NCBI GenBank assembly: GCA_001775395.1
Contig: MEWP01000131.1
Span: forward strand, 16,350-80,349
From: a candidate division Zixibacteria bacterium RBG_16_53_22
Lineage (GTDB): Bacteria > Zixibacteria > MSB-5A5 > UBA10806
DNA length: 64,000 bases
Reading direction: 5' to 3'
A program made the translations under genes and the position numbers. Below, piece after piece: positions 31,137-34,873 of the stretch. Each line of letters begins with the position of its first letter. Positions within the stretch are counted from its first letter, which is position 1. A model generated the notes under the pieces. It saw nothing but the letters and a program-made list of their open reading frames with translations, was not told where the DNA came from and did not search any database.

Positions 31137-31544
31137 TCATTTTATTTTTCCCACCTCAGAGGGATTTGCCTTTATTTTGGCAGCCAGCAAGGCGATTTTC
31201 TTCAAAAGGTCATCGATCCTGAAAGGCTTGAGAAGCACATCGCAGGGCTGAAAGGCCCTGATCTCGCTGTCGGAGTTGTCGAAGATGACGCCTGTGATGA
31301 TTAGAACCGGAGTTTTTATGGAGGCCGCCCGGATCCGTCGAACCAGCTCGAGCCCGCTGATGCCCGGAATCCCAAGATCGGTAATAATCAAATCGTAATT
31401 ACTCGCCCTGGCCAGCTTCCACCCTTCCAGGCCATCGGCCGCCGACGTGACCGAATAGCCATAAAGCGCCAATATCTCATTGATGACGTCACGGACATCC
31501 GCTTCGTCTTCCACCACCAAAACCGAGAATGCGGGCATGGTCAA
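31137..31544 (-). CDS. Response regulator, receiver domain only (CheY-like)
   Basis: VLVVEDE..., phospho-acceptor IITDLGIPG, LIITGV and KPF motifs. Confidence 0.8.
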   Translation of the reverse strand: MTMPAFSVLVVEDEADVRDVINEILALYGYSVTSAADGLEGWKLARASNYDLIITDLGIPGISGLELVRRIRAASIKTPVLIITGVIFDNSDSEIRAFQPCDVLLKPFRIDDLLKKIALLAAKIKANPSEVGKIK

Positions 31545-31918
31545 TCTCGCCTTCGCTTAATCTTCGAGAGAATAGCCGTGATTTTTTCGGAATCGCTGAT
31601 AATCGATTCCATGCTGCTTTCGATATCGTACAATATGCCGCCGTTGGAGAGCTTTTCTTCGCCGTCACCCGGCGCGCCCTTGCCTCTCTTATCCGCCCCC
31701 GCCGCCGACAGAACCTGGTTCATTTGCTTGACGGTCTGCGTGGCCTGGTTGACAAGTTGTGAGAGACGCTGGTTTAGCTCCACGCCGAGGTCCTGCCGAT
31801 GCGCGATCTTGGCTGCGGCCACGGCAATATTCAAAGCCAGAAGCTGTATCTCACCCGAGACGCTTTCGAGATATTTGAGGAGGTCCTCCTCACTGCGTTT
31901 TTTATCCATTATGCTCAA
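31541..31918 (-). CDS. Small protein with an MCP-signalling-domain-like segment
   Basis: IQLLALNIAVAAAKIA resembles the conserved MCP core NLLALNAAIEAARAG. 125 aa, with no sensor or HAMP region. Confidence 0.35.
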   Translation of the reverse strand: MSIMDKKRSEEDLLKYLESVSGEIQLLALNIAVAAAKIAHRQDLGVELNQRLSQLVNQATQTVKQMNQVLSAAGADKRGKGAPGDGEEKLSNGGILYDIESSMESIISDSEKITAILSKIKRRRD

Positions 31919-32286
31919 GGCGCCAAGAGCTCCTTGACCTGGGTCTTGAGTTCATCGAGATTGGGCGATTTTACCAGGTATGCATCGGCCAGCCACGACG
32001 TAAAATTGTTCTTATATGTCGAGTAAGCCGAATTCAGGATGACGGGAAGATCCGATTTCATGCCTCTCAGGCGCTCGAGAACCTGCAATCCATCCAAAAG
32101 CCCCATCTTGATGTCGAGGATGACGAGATCGACGCTGGTGTCGGCGCCGATGAACTGCAGCGCTTCCTCGCCGCTCGCGACTGAATGAGTCTTGTAACCC
32201 TCCCCCTCAAGCTCGCACTGATAGAGCGAGCGTATATCCTCCTCATCATCGACGATTAGAATATTTTTCATTTCTCCTCCGTGCAC
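31915..32286 (-). CDS. Response regulator, receiver domain only
   Basis: ILIVDDEED, LVILDIKMG and YLVKSP receiver motifs. Confidence 0.8.
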   Translation of the reverse strand: MHGGEMKNILIVDDEEDIRSLYQCELEGEGYKTHSVASGEEALQFIGADTSVDLVILDIKMGLLDGLQVLERLRGMKSDLPVILNSAYSTYKNNFTSWLADAYLVKSPNLDELKTQVKELLAP

Positions 32287-33989
32287 AGCGGCAATTCGAT
32301 ATAAACCTGAAGATTATTTTTTTCGTCGGACGACACGCCGATTCCCCCACCATAATGTTGCAGTATTTCAAGCGCCACGGCGGTATCCTGGCTTTTTAAG
32401 TCTCCTCTGCTTTCGCGAAATACTCTATAGAAATCTTCGGCAAAATTCGGATAATTATCAGTCCCCATTATGTAAATCAATCCGGATTGCCCATTATTGC
32501 CCACCCTGACCAGCAAGTCCTGCATTCCGCCGGCTATCTGCGAGGCTCGGCGCATGATTGCCATCATCGCCTGATAGAAGAGCCCCTGGTCGATGAGGAT
32601 CCGAAGCTGCTCGGCGCCGGGATCAGCGTGCAGCGCCGGCAACTCAGCGCTGGTTGGGCTGGCCAGCATCCCCAAAGCATCCTTCAATAGGCCGACAAGA
32701 GGAAATTTGCCCTCTTTCTTCTCGCTGAGGGTCACCACGCTCGAGAAACGATCCAGGGCGTGCTCGATTCGAGATACTTGCTTGGATACTATCTCCAGGA
32801 CCTTAAAGGACTTATCTTCGGCGGTGAGCTTTTTCAAGCTTGAGTTGGCGTATCCCCCTATCACCGTCAAGGGATTTCTTATCTCGTGAGCGACCTCGAG
32901 CGCCATCCTGGCGACACTAGAGAGCTTCTCGGCTTTGACCAGGTTTTCGCGCGACTGAATTATCTTTTCGTTGGCCTCTTTGAGACGGCAAACCTGCTGT
33001 TCAAGCTTGCCATAGAGACGGGAGTTTTCGATGGCATCGGCGGCGTACTTGGCAAAAATCTCCAAGACGTTCAGGTCGGACTGCGAAATCGGCTTGCGAG
33101 TTATCAGGTTGTCGGCCAGGAGAACCCCCTGAAAATTGTCATGCGAAATGAGCGGCACGACCGCCATGGAGTCGGTGCCAAACAACTCGACCAGGTGGCG
33201 GCTGCTCTGGCAATCGATGCAATCGGCGGTGGTAATGAGCGACCTGCCCTCCTTGATTGCGCGGATGATGAAATTGTCATCGTCGGTCAGCGGGATTTTC
33301 AAGGAAGCCACCAGGCGATTGACATGGATGTCCTCGACATTGCCGGATGTCGATTTATAAAGCCTTAATGTCTCCTCGAGACTGAGTTTCCTTCGCGCCA
33401 GGTCCTGCCAGATGGAGCCGGCTTCCTCCGGTGTCGAGGGGCCGGTGGCCAGGCAACCCCAGAGATGGGTCCGCGATTCGTTCGAAAGCAACACGAACCC
33501 TCTGTTGAAAGCCAACCCGGGTCCGGCTGTGACGCCCAGCAGGATGATGCGGAGGATATCGGAAAGGTTGCGGGTTTCGGCGAATGCCTTAATGACCTGG
33601 TTGATTATGTCCAGGATATAAATCTTGTGCTCGAGTCCGGCCGCCGAATCGGCCTCGGCAGTTCTATCGAGCAGAAAGCAGGCCACCTCGCCCTTGATAT
33701 GGTCCGGGCATGGGTAACAGTGCAGCTCGCAATGCACCTCGCCGATTTCGCCGGAGAGCACATATCTGGCCATCGACGGCACGCCGTCCAACGCGGCCCG
33801 CACGGCTCCAATCACTTCGCTGGAATCCGATGGAATCAACGGGCGAATATCATCGGGATCGGAACCGATCGATTGGCCGGCGAATTGGTCACTCTGACAG
33901 CGGAAATTCGAGATGCGCCAATTGCTGCTGAGCCGGAAGAATATCCCCGTCCTGGACATGCGGGTCTGTTCCGTCTGAGCCGGCAACAT
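32268..33989 (-). CDS. GAF domain sensor histidine kinase
   Basis: GAF region followed by the H-box HEIRNPLTVIGGYANSS, then a divergent ATPase region with a G2-like GGGIGV. Confidence 0.7.
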   Translation of the reverse strand: MLPAQTEQTRMSRTGIFFRLSSNWRISNFRCQSDQFAGQSIGSDPDDIRPLIPSDSSEVIGAVRAALDGVPSMARYVLSGEIGEVHCELHCYPCPDHIKGEVACFLLDRTAEADSAAGLEHKIYILDIINQVIKAFAETRNLSDILRIILLGVTAGPGLAFNRGFVLLSNESRTHLWGCLATGPSTPEEAGSIWQDLARRKLSLEETLRLYKSTSGNVEDIHVNRLVASLKIPLTDDDNFIIRAIKEGRSLITTADCIDCQSSRHLVELFGTDSMAVVPLISHDNFQGVLLADNLITRKPISQSDLNVLEIFAKYAADAIENSRLYGKLEQQVCRLKEANEKIIQSRENLVKAEKLSSVARMALEVAHEIRNPLTVIGGYANSSLKKLTAEDKSFKVLEIVSKQVSRIEHALDRFSSVVTLSEKKEGKFPLVGLLKDALGMLASPTSAELPALHADPGAEQLRILIDQGLFYQAMMAIMRRASQIAGGMQDLLVRVGNNGQSGLIYIMGTDNYPNFAEDFYRVFRESRGDLKSQDTAVALEILQHYGGGIGVSSDEKNNLQVYIELPLCTEEK

Positions 33990-33991
33990 CG

Positions 33992-34873
33992 CTAATTCTT
34001 TCCCAGTCTCCCCTGGGTTTGCAGAAACAGCCTGTTTTCCGATTCCAACCTCAACGATAGGCTTCTGGGGTGGTCTGACTGCTGGGGAGTCAGCTTTTGA
34101 GTCATGGCCATGATGTTCGAGGCTTCCTTATCGATAGCTTTCAAGCGTTTTATTACCGACGGGCCGGAGCCTTTCATGGTCATCATCAAAAACTGCGCAT
34201 TGCCGGCGATAATGGCCAGGGGATTAGTGATTCTCTGGTTCAATGTGTTCGCCAGGTCCTCCCCGAATGGGGCTTTCTCTGCGCTTGGCCTTTTTTTCCT
34301 TTCGGTCTCCAGATCCGCCTTCAGCCGCTCAATTTCCTCCTGCATTGCAGTGGTCGCCTCCTGCGCCTTGATGCGCTCGATCAGCAATGCGATAACCGAG
34401 CCTGCCGCGGCCACGATCTGGGAATCGCGCTTGCGATACATATCGGGTTCGTCATGCGAGAGATTGATAATCCCGCACGTTTCCTTATTGAATATGATCG
34501 GGACAGACAGGAATGACCTCGTATGGGTCCCACCCTTCGATTTCCTGAGATTATTGAGCATTATGGGACGCTTATGTTTTGCGACCCAGGCCGAGATCCC
34601 GCTGCCAAGCTCGAAATTGACGAAATCGATTAGATCGGCTCGCCGGCCGATATTGCGGATTTCCTCCAGTTTGCCGGTCTGGCTGGAAAACATATAGATC
34701 GACGCGGAGCGAAAATCGATAATTTGCCCCAACAGCTTCAGGATTTCTTCCACGCGTTCCAGGGTGGCCCCGGATCTCTGCACCAAGGAGGAGATTTCGC
34801 TCAAGATCTCAATTTCCTGTTCCGGACTTATTGTGGGTATTCTGGATTCCCCCGACACATTACCTCCAATCAA
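33992..34873 (-). CDS. GAF domain protein with a His-less DHp-like segment (pseudo histidine kinase, no ATPase domain)
   Basis: GAF followed by a coiled coil, then QRITNPLAIIAGNAQFLMM. Gln occupies the H-box His position and no HATPase_c region follows. Confidence 0.55.
   Translation of the reverse strand: MIGGNVSGESRIPTISPEQEIEILSEISSLVQRSGATLERVEEILKLLGQIIDFRSASIYMFSSQTGKLEEIRNIGRRADLIDFVNFELGSGISAWVAKHKRPIMLNNLRKSKGGTHTRSFLSVPIIFNKETCGIINLSHDEPDMYRKRDSQIVAAAGSVIALLIERIKAQEATTAMQEEIERLKADLETERKKRPSAEKAPFGEDLANTLNQRITNPLAIIAGNAQFLMMTMKGSGPSVIKRLKAIDKEASNIMAMTQKLTPQQSDHPRSLSLRLESENRLFLQTQGRLGKN

What the first reader, a model, noticed from the sequence alone, without database searches (positions are those of the whole stretch)
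31137..34873. Five-gene signalling operon: GAF pseudo-kinase, GAF histidine kinase, receiver, mini MCP-like protein, receiver
All five genes overlap by 4-19 nt on the minus strand. The first (293 aa) has a GAF domain and a DHp-like helix in which the phospho-accepting His is replaced by Gln (QRITNPL versus HEIRNPL in the next gene), and it lacks an ATPase domain. It looks like a pseudo-kinase that could heterodimerise with, or titrate, the adjacent bona fide GAF histidine kinase. Two stand-alone CheY-like receivers flank a 125-aa protein carrying only an MCP highly-conserved-domain-like stretch (QLLALNIAVAAAKIA). No cheA or cheW is nearby. The operon sits next to PilZ/YcgR, fliA, flgM and csrA, so it probably feeds into motility control. 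This combination of parts is unusual.
Basis: partly seen in the sequence, partly recalled or inferred. Interest (0 to 1): 0.6.

Follow-up and report, generated by a model that had tools for sequence, protein, structure and literature searches.

The report
Kinase-dead phosphorelay operon with mini-chemoreceptor
This is a real, tightly packed five-gene signalling operon, conserved in the flagellar gene clusters of Zixibacteria, in which both kinase-like proteins lack something a kinase needs (one the phosphorylated histidine, the other its ATP-binding motifs) and one small protein derives from the tip of a chemoreceptor; it looks like an undescribed variant of bacterial phosphorelay signalling.

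Summary
The five minus-strand genes are real, tightly coupled and conserved in order across Zixibacteria (window = Zixibacteria bacterium RBG_16_53_22).

**Confirmed**
- g1 is GAF plus a DHp-like hairpin with no ATPase domain. Gln sits at the His position, and that position varies freely across the family.
- g3 and g5 are stand-alone receivers.
- g4 fails Pfam MCPsignal on its own, but its family profile hits only chemoreceptor signalling domains.

**Corrected**
- The "bona fide" kinase g2 is not one. H368, E369 and N372 are kept in 81-82 of 82 orthologues. The N, G1 and G2 ATP-binding boxes are absent in 0/82, against 24-26/30 in outgroups.
- Only one junction clearly overlaps.
- Pfam finds FlgN, not FlgM.

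**New**
- g2/g3 are ThkA/TrrA-type; g3 is 50% identical to TrrA.
- In a sister lineage the same module has a CheW-domain gene directly after the mini-MCP.
- This genome has deleted flgF-J and a third receiver next to the operon.

**Best reading (about 0.45):** an ATPase-less His-Asp phosphotransfer hub of the Spo0B/ChpT/PhyT kind, with a His-less paralogue and an MCP-tip-derived scaffold, acting on the flagellum. The phosphodonor and the output are unknown. I rate it a new variant of a known kind.

The parts
33992..34873 (-). g1: GAF + DHp-like helical hairpin with no phospho-acceptor His (Q213) and no ATPase domain. The probable start is GTG 34858 (288 aa).
   Evidence: The ORF is. Pfam GAF_2 scores 2.8e-11 and HisKA only 0.045. 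hhalign against the g2 family gives Prob 95.9%, E 5.7e-9, with Q213 opposite H368. Across 121 sequences the His position reads K38/Q33/H17/E12/R10 and others, while NPLAIIAGNAQFLLMTMK is nearly invariant. The SD-GTG start is conserved in L086, and the best homologue is 288 aa.
32268..33989 (-). g2: PAS-like + GAF + DHp with an invariant H-box (H368-E-I-R-N-P) + pseudo-CA domain. The domain has a CA-like fold, but the N, G1 and G2 ATP-binding boxes are lost.
   Evidence: Pfam finds GAF and HisKA but no HATPase_c. PDB alignments to ThkA and ZraS show the boxes replaced. Family counts: H 82/82, N-box 0/82, G1 0/82, G2 0/82, against 24-26/30 in outgroups. The AF2 model has pLDDT 80 with an alpha/beta domain at 426-568. 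Foldseek hits are PAS/GAF-linked histidine kinases.
31915..32286 (-). g3: stand-alone receiver of the TrrA type. The probable start is ATG 32271 (118 aa), overlapping the g2 stop as ATGA.
   Evidence: Pfam Response_reg scores 1e-21. It is 50% identical over its full length to T. maritima TrrA (3A0R_B, E 5.6e-28), against 1e-13 for the next hit. It is the most conserved protein of the operon: 90% to L086 and 63-70% to distant Zixibacteria.
31541..31918 (-). g4: 122-125-aa three-helix protein derived from the hairpin tip of a chemoreceptor signalling domain ('mini-MCP'), with the invariant motif IQLLALNIAVAAAK.
   Evidence: It has no Pfam hit on its own. The family alignment is A1. The profile against PDB hits only MCPs (2CH7, E 1.6e-5). 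MCPsignal is matched at E<1 in 28 of 30 members, best 6.8e-7. The exhaustive profile search finds small relatives and then more than 100 long proteins, and 7 of 7 tested are MCPs. AF2 places helices at 3-40, 46-75 and 92-124, with the turn where the MCP U-turn aligns.
31137..31544 (-). g5: second stand-alone receiver. The probable start is ATG 31538 (133 aa).
   Evidence: Pfam Response_reg scores 3e-24. By inspection the acidic pocket (E-D), the phospho-Asp (LIITDLG), Thr (IITGV) and Lys-Pro (LLKPF) are all present. Orthologues sit at the same position in L001, L002, L006, L086 and L087.
31017..31071 (-). Two terminator-like hairpins 65-120 nt downstream of the g5 stop; the likely end of the transcription unit.
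   Evidence: Found. Overall counts do not exceed shuffles, so the support comes from their position only. No minus-strand terminator-like site lies inside the operon.
35059..35802 (-). Context: a YcgR-like PilZNR+PilZ protein directly upstream. It is the conserved upstream neighbour of the module in all related loci.
   Evidence: Pfam PilZNR scores 6e-10 and PilZ 1.7e-7. Synteny is shown.

Best explanation
The operon is a kinase-less branch of a His-Asp phosphorelay built on a ThkA/TrrA-type two-component pair and embedded in the flagellar regulon.

g2 (PAS-like, GAF, DHp, pseudo-CA) cannot bind ATP and so cannot autophosphorylate. This is inferred from motif loss. Its invariant His and HE-x-R-N-P box let it take phosphoryl groups from one stand-alone receiver and pass them to another, or strip them off. 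The receivers are g3 (TrrA-type), g5 and, in relatives, a third receiver. This matches what the kinase-derived phosphotransferases Spo0B, ChpT and PhyT do. The PAS-like and GAF domains would gate the flow in response to a small ligand.

g1 is a paralogous GAF-DHp protein. In most Zixibacteria it has lost the His but keeps an almost invariant receiver-facing helix. It acts as a non-phosphorylatable partner, either by heterodimerising with g2 or by docking a receiver.

g4 is a coiled-coil scaffold derived from a chemoreceptor tip. It probably assembles these proteins, with CheW in a sister lineage, into a chemosensory-like complex.

The phosphoryl input must come from outside the operon, either from another kinase or from acetyl phosphate. 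The output is protein-protein control of flagellar function by the receivers.

Shown here: domain anatomy, motif loss, conservation and synteny. Inferred: every biochemical step.
For: (1) ATP-binding boxes. N, G1 and G2 are absent in 0/82 orthologues and present in 24-26/30 outgroups. H368, E369 and N372 are kept in 82/82, 81/82 and 82/82. Pfam gives no HATPase_c hit here, and the precomputed Pfam domains list none for P0001-P0089.
(2) The pseudo-CA still folds as a CA-like alpha/beta domain. It appears to be under purifying selection (dN/dS about 0.06 against L086, dS saturated).
(3) His is kept without an ATPase even in lineages below 30% identity (L088, L089, L092). One of these has lost the phosphatase Glu (AHRFQNPL). 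This favours a His~P intermediate over a pure phosphatase.
(4) The only outgroup found in the same flagellar context with a canonical CA domain (L003) has a single receiver. The ATPase-less versions carry two to four.
(5) g3 is a TrrA-type receiver translationally coupled to g2, and ThkA is the best PDB hit of g2.
(6) g1 is homologous to g2 from the GAF domain through both DHp helices. Its His position is free to vary while the following helix is nearly invariant.
(7) g4 family homology to MCP tips. Distant g4 relatives, found by profile alone, again sit beside GAF-HisKA proteins without HATPase_c and beside receivers. In three contigs a CheW-domain gene follows them directly.
(8) The module always lies between FliA/PilZ and flgF-flgJ in relatives.
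(9) Precedent: PhyT, a kinase-like protein with a degenerate ATPase domain, transfers phosphoryl groups from the single-domain receiver SdrG to PhyR (PMC5898713).
Against: No phosphodonor has been identified. The window contains no other kinase core, and I could not survey whole Zixibacterial genomes.

An invariant His plus E-x-x-N also fits a dedicated phosphatase.

ATP binding was judged from sequence motifs only; an unusual nucleotide site cannot be formally excluded.

No sequence similarity to Spo0B, ChpT or PhyT themselves was seen, so the link is by analogy only.

The role of g4 is untested. Its U-turn lacks the GRGF motif of real receptors, and CheW is absent from the window and from the five related Zixibacterial loci compared.

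Only monomer models could be made, so no heterodimer or complex was tested.

In this particular genome the adjacent flagellar rod and ring genes and the third receiver are deleted. The local copy may therefore work in a changed context.
Confidence: 0.45

Rival explanations
1. One reading: g2 is an active GAF-regulated autokinase that phosphorylates g3 and g5, and g1 is a pseudo-kinase that heterodimerises with it or titrates it.
For: g2 has an intact H-box and a CA-like fold. g1 is a His-less paralogue. An outgroup locus (L003) has this arrangement, with a canonical HATPase_c kinase beside a His-less g1-like protein.
Against: In the window and in all 82 orthologues the N-box Asn pair, the G1 DxGxG (with a 2-residue deletion) and the G2 GxGxG are gone. 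There is no Pfam HATPase_c hit. These residues coordinate Mg-ATP in all characterised GHKL kinases (established knowledge).
Confidence: 0.08
2. An accessory chemotaxis module. The receivers are CheY-like proteins phosphorylated by a CheA encoded elsewhere. g2 (with g1) is their dedicated phosphatase or phosphate sink. g4 (plus CheW in the sister lineage) docks the module onto chemoreceptor arrays.
For: The HE-x-x-N phosphatase motif is invariant in Zixibacteria. g4 keeps the N-arm LLALN..A..AA(K/R) stretch, which in receptors lies at the trimer and CheW/CheA contact region (the role of that stretch is from my own knowledge). A CheW-domain gene directly follows the mini-MCP in L088, L091 and L092. 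Precedent: Rhodobacter CheA3, a kinase-less CheA fragment that dephosphorylates CheY6-P in a cytoplasmic cluster (PMC3591291 and PMC6829392).
Against: A phosphatase does not need a strictly invariant His. One lineage (L089) keeps His but has lost the Glu of the phosphatase motif. g3 is a TrrA-type, not a CheY-type, receiver. No CheA, CheW or MCP lies in the 64-kb window or in the related Zixibacterial loci compared. Whether these genomes encode CheA at all was not testable here.
Confidence: 0.2
3. Phosphorylation-independent or 'reversed' signalling, as with DivL. The pseudo-kinases are scaffolds whose DHp and pseudo-CA surfaces read the state of the receivers and pass it on allosterically to g4 or to flagellar proteins. 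The conserved His is structural only.
For: The His of g1 is dispensable while its receiver-facing helix is nearly invariant. The pseudo-CA carries its own conserved motifs (FAExFY, VALEILQHYGG) despite losing the ATP boxes. Precedent: DivL, a repurposed kinase that senses DivK-P (PMC4211667, listed).
Against: H368, R371, N372 and P373 of g2 are invariant across 82 orthologues (E369 in 81/82). His is retained in lineages below 30% identity. That is hard to explain without chemistry at the His.
Confidence: 0.12
4. In this genome the operon is a relic. The flagellar apparatus is being lost, and the five genes are leftovers without a current function.
For: Between g5 and flgN only fragments of flgI (30653-30820) and flgJ (30276-30341, with an in-frame stop) remain. 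The third receiver, flgF-J, flgK, flhA and the DUF2225 gene, all present in relatives, are missing from the equivalent positions. The first described Zixibacterium, RBG-1, was predicted to be non-flagellated (PMC3903129).
Against: All five ORFs are intact and keep every family-invariant motif. fliA, pilZ, flgN and csrA are also intact. Pairwise dN/dS against a flagellated relative is low for all five genes, although that averages over both lineages and dS is saturated. This rival concerns only the window's copy, not the family.
Confidence: 0.1

Closest known systems
ThkA/TrrA two-component pair of Thermotoga maritima (PDB 3A0R)
   Same: g3 is 50% identical to TrrA over its whole length, including the distinctive AYSxYKxxFxSWxADxYxVKS tail. 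ThkA is the best solved-structure match of g2. In both cases a sensor-domain-linked HisKA kinase is followed directly by a stand-alone receiver. The same pairing occurs in relatives outside flagellar clusters (L004, L005, L025).
   Different: From my own knowledge, ThkA is regarded as a nucleotide-binding active kinase. g2 has lost all ATP-binding boxes. ThkA/TrrA has no His-less paralogue, no mini-MCP and no extra receivers. As far as I know, its biological output is also unknown.
Kinase-derived histidine phosphotransferases: Spo0B (Bacillus), ChpT (Caulobacter), PhyT (Sphingomonas)
   Same: All have a dimeric DHp-type hairpin with a conserved His, followed by a CA-like domain that no longer binds ATP. 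All shuttle phosphoryl groups between receivers, and stand-alone receivers (Spo0F, CpdR, SdrG) are their partners (PMC5898713; PMC3433190).
   Different: No detectable sequence relationship; the degeneration happened independently. g2 carries PAS-like and GAF sensor domains, so the transfer step itself would be ligand-gated. A second, His-less DHp paralogue and an MCP-derived protein are encoded alongside. Phosphotransfer has not been demonstrated here.
Pseudo-histidine kinases without the phospho-acceptor His (for example DivL)
   Same: g1 keeps the DHp fold and its receiver-facing surface, but the His is replaced (PMC4211667).
   Different: DivL retains a CA domain and has Tyr at the His position. 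g1 has no CA domain at all, and the position drifts freely (K/Q/E/R/D and others). Some clades still have His.
Chemoreceptor (MCP)-CheW-CheA core complexes, including the split CheA3/CheA4 cytoplasmic cluster of Rhodobacter sphaeroides
   Same: g4 aligns along its whole length with the tip region of MCP signalling domains. A CheW-domain protein follows it in a sister lineage. CheY-like receivers are encoded in the same unit. Kinase functions are split or degenerate, as in CheA3/CheA4 (PMC3591291, PMC6829392).
   Different: g4 has 122 residues, far shorter than any MCP that I know of. It has no methylation helices, HAMP domain or sensor. The U-turn GRGF motif is not conserved. There is no CheA, CheR or CheB. 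The kinase-like protein is HisKA-type, not CheA-type, and has no P5/CheW-like domain.

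Membership tests
Bona fide HisKA-type sensor histidine kinase (for g2) | DHp domain with the phospho-acceptor His in an H-box | tested here: met
   Pfam HisKA scores 2.4e-7. HEIRNPLT is present, and H368 is kept in 82/82 orthologues.
Bona fide HisKA-type sensor histidine kinase (for g2) | Catalytic ATP-binding domain with N, G1 and G2 boxes (HATPase_c) | tested here: not met
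   No Pfam HATPase_c hit. N-box N...N 0/82, G1 D.G.G 0/82, G2 G.G.G 0/82, against 24-26/30 in outgroups.
Bona fide HisKA-type sensor histidine kinase (for g2) | ATP-dependent autophosphorylation | not testable with these tools
   This needs biochemistry.
Kinase-derived histidine phosphotransferase (Spo0B/ChpT/PhyT kind; for g2) | Conserved His on a DHp-like hairpin plus a CA-like domain devoid of ATP-binding motifs | tested here: met
Kinase-derived histidine phosphotransferase (Spo0B/ChpT/PhyT kind; for g2) | Stand-alone receiver partners on both sides of the transfer | tested here: inconclusive
   Two receivers are in the operon, and three to four in relatives. Which of them interact with g2 is unknown.
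Kinase-derived histidine phosphotransferase (Spo0B/ChpT/PhyT kind; for g2) | Sequence homology to Spo0B, ChpT or PhyT | tested here: not met
   The PDB sequence search with g2 lists ordinary kinases only. This is a functional analogy, not family membership.
Kinase-derived histidine phosphotransferase (Spo0B/ChpT/PhyT kind; for g2) | Demonstrated Asp-to-His-to-Asp transfer | not testable with these tools
   This needs phosphotransfer profiling.
His-less pseudo-histidine kinase (for g1) | DHp homologue in which the phospho-acceptor His is replaced | tested here: met
   hhalign Prob 95.9% with Q213 opposite H368. The family column reads K38/Q33/H17/E12/R10 and others.
Methyl-accepting chemotaxis protein (for g4) | MCPsignal domain at Pfam's gathering score | tested here: not met
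   The window protein has no hit. Of 30 family members, 28 match at E<1, best 6.8e-7. The one related protein whose bit score was printed, P0363, has 33.3 bits against a cut-off of 34.6.
Methyl-accepting chemotaxis protein (for g4) | Homology to the hairpin-tip (protein-interaction) region | tested here: met
   The profile against PDB hits only MCPs, aligned at the tip (2CH7, 1.6e-5). The exhaustive search returns MCPs matched inside their signalling domain. The AF2 turn at 41-45 coincides with the aligned U-turn.
Methyl-accepting chemotaxis protein (for g4) | Conserved U-turn motif (E-x-G-R-G-F-A-V-V-A) and a long antiparallel hairpin with methylation helices | tested here: not met
   The aligned residues are AHRQDLGVELN. 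At 122-125 aa the protein leaves no room for adaptation helices. The C-arm is interrupted by a disordered linker at 76-91.
Methyl-accepting chemotaxis protein (for g4) | Works with CheW and CheA | tested here: inconclusive
   No CheW or CheA in the window or in the related Zixibacterial loci. A CheW-domain gene directly follows the homologue in L088, L091 and L092.
ThkA/TrrA-type two-component pair (for g2+g3) | TrrA-like stand-alone receiver encoded directly after a sensor-linked HisKA protein | tested here: met
   g3 against 3A0R_B: 50% identity, E 5.6e-28. ATGA coupling to g2. g2 against 3A0R_A: E 1e-7.
CheY-like receiver (for g3, g5) | Receiver fold with the acidic pocket, phospho-Asp, Thr/Ser and Lys | tested here: met
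   Pfam Response_reg. The residues are visible in the sequences and in the TrrA alignment.
CheY-like receiver (for g3, g5) | Binding to the flagellar switch (FliM/FliN) | not testable with these tools
   No assay or complex prediction was available.

The most novel reading that the evidence does not exclude
The module is a previously unrecognised, CheA-less chemosensory-type complex. A minimal chemoreceptor-tip protein, together with CheW in the fuller sister version, assembles two ATPase-less HisKA-derived proteins and several CheY-like receivers into a cytoplasmic signalling particle. This particle gates a phosphorelay to the flagellum in response to GAF/PAS ligands. It would be a hybrid between chemoreceptor arrays and two-component phosphorelays.
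Probability: 0.15. Interest if true: 0.8.

Novelty: new variant of a known kind. Interest (0 to 1): 0.6.

Why it matters
If the reading holds, it matters for four reasons.
- It adds an independent case of a histidine kinase turned into a phosphotransferase. Unusually, this one keeps its sensor domains, so the transfer step rather than autophosphorylation would be the regulated one.
- It pairs that protein with a second paralogue in which the His has become dispensable.
- It defines a family of roughly 120-residue proteins that keep only the tip of a chemoreceptor and sit beside receivers, and in a sister lineage beside CheW. That raises the question of what an MCP tip does without CheA.
- The module is a fixed part of flagellar gene clusters in an uncultured phylum, so it is a candidate regulator of flagellar assembly or rotation there.

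It also cautions against naming GAF-HisKA proteins 'sensor histidine kinase' on the DHp match alone, as several database names here do.

Tried and rejected
- **FliA promoter.** GCCGATGA lies upstream of g1 (about 34935), but the TAAA spacing is poor. Nothing comparable is found upstream of g1 in L086 or L001, and a pattern scan of L001, L002, L006, L086 and L087 gave no hit there. Not claimed.
- **Foldseek with the g4 model (pLDDT 70).** It returned only generic helical bundles, with no hit at E<0.001. Uninformative.
- **Genome-contig scan with the g2 alignment.** Only L006 and L007 were true relatives.
- **Rfam on 28500-36500.** Nothing at E<=1.
- **g4 as an Hpt protein.** The only His (H40) is not conserved (H/Q/Y).
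- **g4 as a CheZ- or CheX-type phosphatase hairpin.** No DxxxQ or ExxN motif lies in conserved columns (inspection). Not excluded, but unsupported.
- **FlgM.** Not found by Pfam in the small neighbouring ORFs.
- **dN/dS by domain.** dS is saturated (1.5-3.6), and NG86 failed for the DHp segment. Only the qualitative statement 'well below 1' is used.
- **Promoter and terminator scan.** Counts are no higher than in shuffles. Only the position of the two hairpins after g5 is used.
- **Literature.** Searches for Zixibacterial flagellar or chemotaxis signalling, DUF2225 with flagella, and truncated chemoreceptors found no description of this module.

Full report
**Source and gene calls**

The window matches a contig of candidate division Zixibacteria bacterium RBG_16_53_22; g2 and g4 are 100% identical to its proteins. 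Five consecutive minus-strand ORFs occupy 31137-34873.

Reading the DNA and comparing with homologues suggests these starts:
- g1: GTG 34858, behind a GGAGG that is conserved in the closest relative L086. This gives 288 aa, the length of the best homologue.
- g3: ATG 32271, which overlaps the g2 stop as ATGA.
- g4: ATG 31909 or TTG 31918.
- g5: ATG 31538 or TTG 31544.

g1 and g2 are separated by 2 nt. The genes are therefore translationally coupled, but they do not all overlap by 4-19 nt. Two terminator-like hairpins follow g5 and none lies inside the unit.

**g1**

Pfam finds a GAF domain and only a sub-threshold HisKA match. A profile of 39 family members aligns with the g2 family from the second half of the GAF domain through both DHp helices (Prob 95.9%, E 5.7e-9). 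That alignment places Q213 opposite the phospho-acceptor H368. The protein ends about 25 residues after the end of that alignment, so it has no ATPase domain.

Among 121 sequences the His column reads K38, Q33, H17, E12, R10 and others. The helix that follows, NPLAIIAGNAQFLLMTMK, is almost invariant. The His is therefore dispensable in most lineages. It is kept as HE(I/L)NNPL in one clade and in the sister lineage. The surface that faces the receiver in ordinary kinases (established knowledge) is under strong constraint.

**g2**

This is the main correction. Pfam finds GAF and HisKA but no HATPase_c. Alignments to ThkA and ZraS show that the C-terminal domain is homologous to a CA domain but has changed boxes:
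- The N-box Asn pair reads A...R.
- G1 DxGxG reads DNYPN.
- G2 GxGLGL reads DTAVAL.

In an alignment of 82 orthologues and 30 more distant relatives, the counts are as follows.

| Feature | Orthologues | Outgroups |
|---|---|---|
| H368 | 82/82 | 30/30 |
| E369 | 81/82 | 28/30 |
| N372 | 82/82 | 27/30 |
| N-box | 0/82 | 26/30 |
| G1 | 0/82 | 24/30 |
| G2 | 0/82 | 25/30 |

The domain is not decaying. It keeps its own conserved motifs (FAExFY, VALEILQHYGG). It is predicted to fold as an alpha/beta CA-like domain (AF2 pLDDT 80; Foldseek hits are kinases). Its dN/dS against a 77%-identical relative is about 0.06, with dS saturated. The model also shows a PAS-like domain at residues 15-108, and Pfam calls PAS in the L088 homologue.

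g2 is thus PAS-like, GAF, DHp(His) and pseudo-CA: a kinase-shaped protein that very probably cannot use ATP. tblastn with three canonical kinase cores finds no other kinase core in the 64-kb window.

**g3 and g5**

Both are stand-alone receivers with the usual catalytic residues.

g3 stands out. Its best solved relative is TrrA of Thermotoga maritima, at 50% identity over the full length (E 5.6e-28, against 1e-13 for the next hit). The match includes a characteristic AYSxYKxxFxSWxADxYxVKS tail. ThkA, the partner of TrrA, is also the best PDB hit of g2. The same pairing of a sensor-linked HisKA protein and a TrrA-type receiver occurs outside flagellar clusters in other phyla (L004, L005, L025). 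g3 is the most conserved protein of the operon.

**g4**

The family-level evidence says otherwise:
- The family has about 106 clusters of roughly 122 aa and an invariant IQLLALNIAVAAAK motif.
- Its profile hits only chemoreceptors in the PDB, aligned across the hairpin tip (TM1143, 2CH7, E 1.6e-5).
- 28 of 30 members match MCPsignal at E<1, best 6.8e-7.
- An exhaustive profile search of 1.8 billion representatives returns the family, about 25 more small proteins, and then more than 100 long proteins. The seven tested are all MCPs, matched inside their signalling domain.
- AF2 (pLDDT 70) predicts helices at 3-40 and 46-75, with the turn exactly where the MCP U-turn aligns. A disordered linker and a third helix at 92-124 follow.

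The N-arm motif is kept but the U-turn GRGF is not. The protein is too short for methylation helices. It is MCP-derived, not an MCP.

**Comparative context**

In Zixibacterial loci (L001, L002, L006, L086, L087) the gene order is: FlhF, FlhG, FliA, two small genes, DUF2225, PilZNR/PilZ, a variable gene, sometimes an extra receiver, g1, g2, g3, g4, g5, a third receiver, then flgF-G-A-H-I-J, flgN and flgK.

A more distant locus with a canonical HATPase_c (L003) reads FliA, a HisKA protein, PilZ, g1-like (already His-less), an active g2-like protein, a TrrA-type receiver, a g4 homologue (hhalign Prob 95.8%), CsrA and FliW. It has only one receiver.

Starting from distant g4 relatives found by profile alone, the neighbours are again GAF-HisKA proteins without HATPase_c plus receivers, downstream of DUF2225 and PilZ (L089, L090).

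In three contigs of a sister lineage (L088, L091, L092) the order is g1-like (with His), g2-like (ATP boxes degenerate in the two complete copies, L088 and L092), TrrA-type receiver, mini-MCP, a CheW-domain protein (PF01584, E 1.3e-32), receiver, third receiver. CheW is absent from the window and from the related Zixibacterial loci.

The link between g2, g3 and g4 is therefore ancient. The MCP ancestry of g4 is echoed by a CheW neighbour.

**Mechanism**

Shown:
- No ATP-binding motif in either kinase-like protein.
- An invariant His box in g2.
- A drifting His position and an invariant adjacent helix in g1.
- Two to four stand-alone receivers.
- An MCP-tip-derived protein.
- A fixed position in flagellar clusters.

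Inferred: g2 exchanges phosphoryl groups with receivers as a kinase-derived phosphotransferase and/or phosphatase. Spo0B, ChpT and PhyT work this way. PhyT is the closest precedent: a kinase-like protein with a degenerate ATPase that passes phosphate from a single-domain receiver to a second regulator (PMC5898713).

Two observations favour a His~P intermediate over a pure phosphatase. His is kept without an ATPase across lineages below 30% identity, including one that lost the phosphatase Glu. In the loci compared, the ATPase-less versions carry two to four receivers, while the one same-context locus with a canonical CA domain has one.

g1 would be a non-phosphorylatable partner, either heterodimerising with g2 or docking a receiver. 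g4 would be a scaffold. The phosphodonor (another kinase or acetyl phosphate) and the target of the receivers are unknown. I give this reading about 0.45.

The rivals are:
- An array-docked phosphatase or sink module fed by a distant CheA (0.2; compare CheA3/CheA4, PMC3591291 and PMC6829392).
- DivL-like phosphorylation-independent scaffolding (0.12).
- For this genome only, a relic (0.1).

**State of the locus in this genome**

The 840 nt between g5 and flgN are not empty. They contain a flgI fragment (30653-30820) and a flgJ C-terminal fragment with an in-frame stop (30276-30341). Relatives, including one with 77% identical g2, carry the third receiver and flgF-J there, flgK after flgN, and flhA upstream. 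RBG_16_53_22 has lost these at this locus. It keeps fliA, the flhG-like gene, pilZ, g1-g5, flgN and csrA intact.

**Novelty**

Literature searches found pseudo-kinase and phosphotransferase precedents but nothing on this module, on mini-MCP proteins, or on Zixibacterial motility signalling. Each part has a known relative. The combination and the sensor-gated, ATPase-less hub are new, so I rate it a new variant of a known kind, with interest 0.6. All functional statements remain computational inference.

Noticed in passing
window 30276-31136 (-): The apparently non-coding 840 nt between g5 and flgN hold a flgI fragment (30653-30820; 39% identity over 56 aa) and a flgJ C-terminal fragment with an in-frame stop (30276-30341). 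Relatives have a third receiver plus flgF-G-A-H-I-J here. This genome has deleted or eroded part of its flagellar cluster.
   Followed up: partly
window 29151-30297 and 38579-44577: flgN is followed almost directly by csrA, with no flgK as in L086 and L087. A subtilase (40123-44577, +) lies where flhA sits in relatives. The 418-aa ORF at 38579-39835 occupies the flhF position but has no Pfam hit and lies in a lower-GC stretch (0.478). The DUF2225 gene seen between fliA and pilZ in most related loci (though not in L086) is also missing.
   Followed up: partly
L088 5961-6791; L091 1842-2711; L092 8393-9361: In a sister lineage a CheW-domain protein with a long basic, low-complexity N-terminus is encoded directly after the mini-MCP homologue, inside an otherwise colinear module. 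The taxonomy of these contigs was not determined.
   Followed up: partly
L003 3533-4966 and 7001-8752: This outgroup locus has a g2 homologue with canonical N, G1 and G2 boxes beside a His-less g1-like protein. It also has a separate 477-aa HisKA protein whose C-terminal domain looks degenerate, between fliA and pilZ. It may show an earlier stage of the module.
   Followed up: partly
L001 9916-10338; L086 10912-11343; L092 9883-10287: The third receiver after g5 is 55-60% identical between Zixibacteria and the sister lineage, which is very conserved. In L002 it is followed by a FapA (DUF342) gene, and in L092 by a short ORF whose start looks FapA-like on inspection (not tested). It is absent from the window.
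   Followed up: no
window 44695-45690 (-): A phosphate acetyltransferase (pta) lies about 10 kb away. Acetyl phosphate can phosphorylate receivers without a kinase. The proximity is probably coincidental, but it bears on the missing-phosphodonor question.
   Followed up: no
window 27078-28013 (-): An HDOD-domain protein (Pfam E 7e-63) lies downstream of csrA. HDOD proteins are often linked to motility and c-di-GMP signalling. It was not examined further.
   Followed up: no
L089/L090 1530-3586; L092 2358-4397: Related loci carry two or three PilZ-family genes in a row upstream of the module, always after a DUF2225 gene. This suggests c-di-GMP input close to the GAF proteins.
   Followed up: no
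P0056, P0058, P0040: Public annotations name g2 orthologues 'GAF domain-containing sensor histidine kinase', although they lack every ATP-binding box. This is a likely systematic over-annotation.
   Followed up: yes
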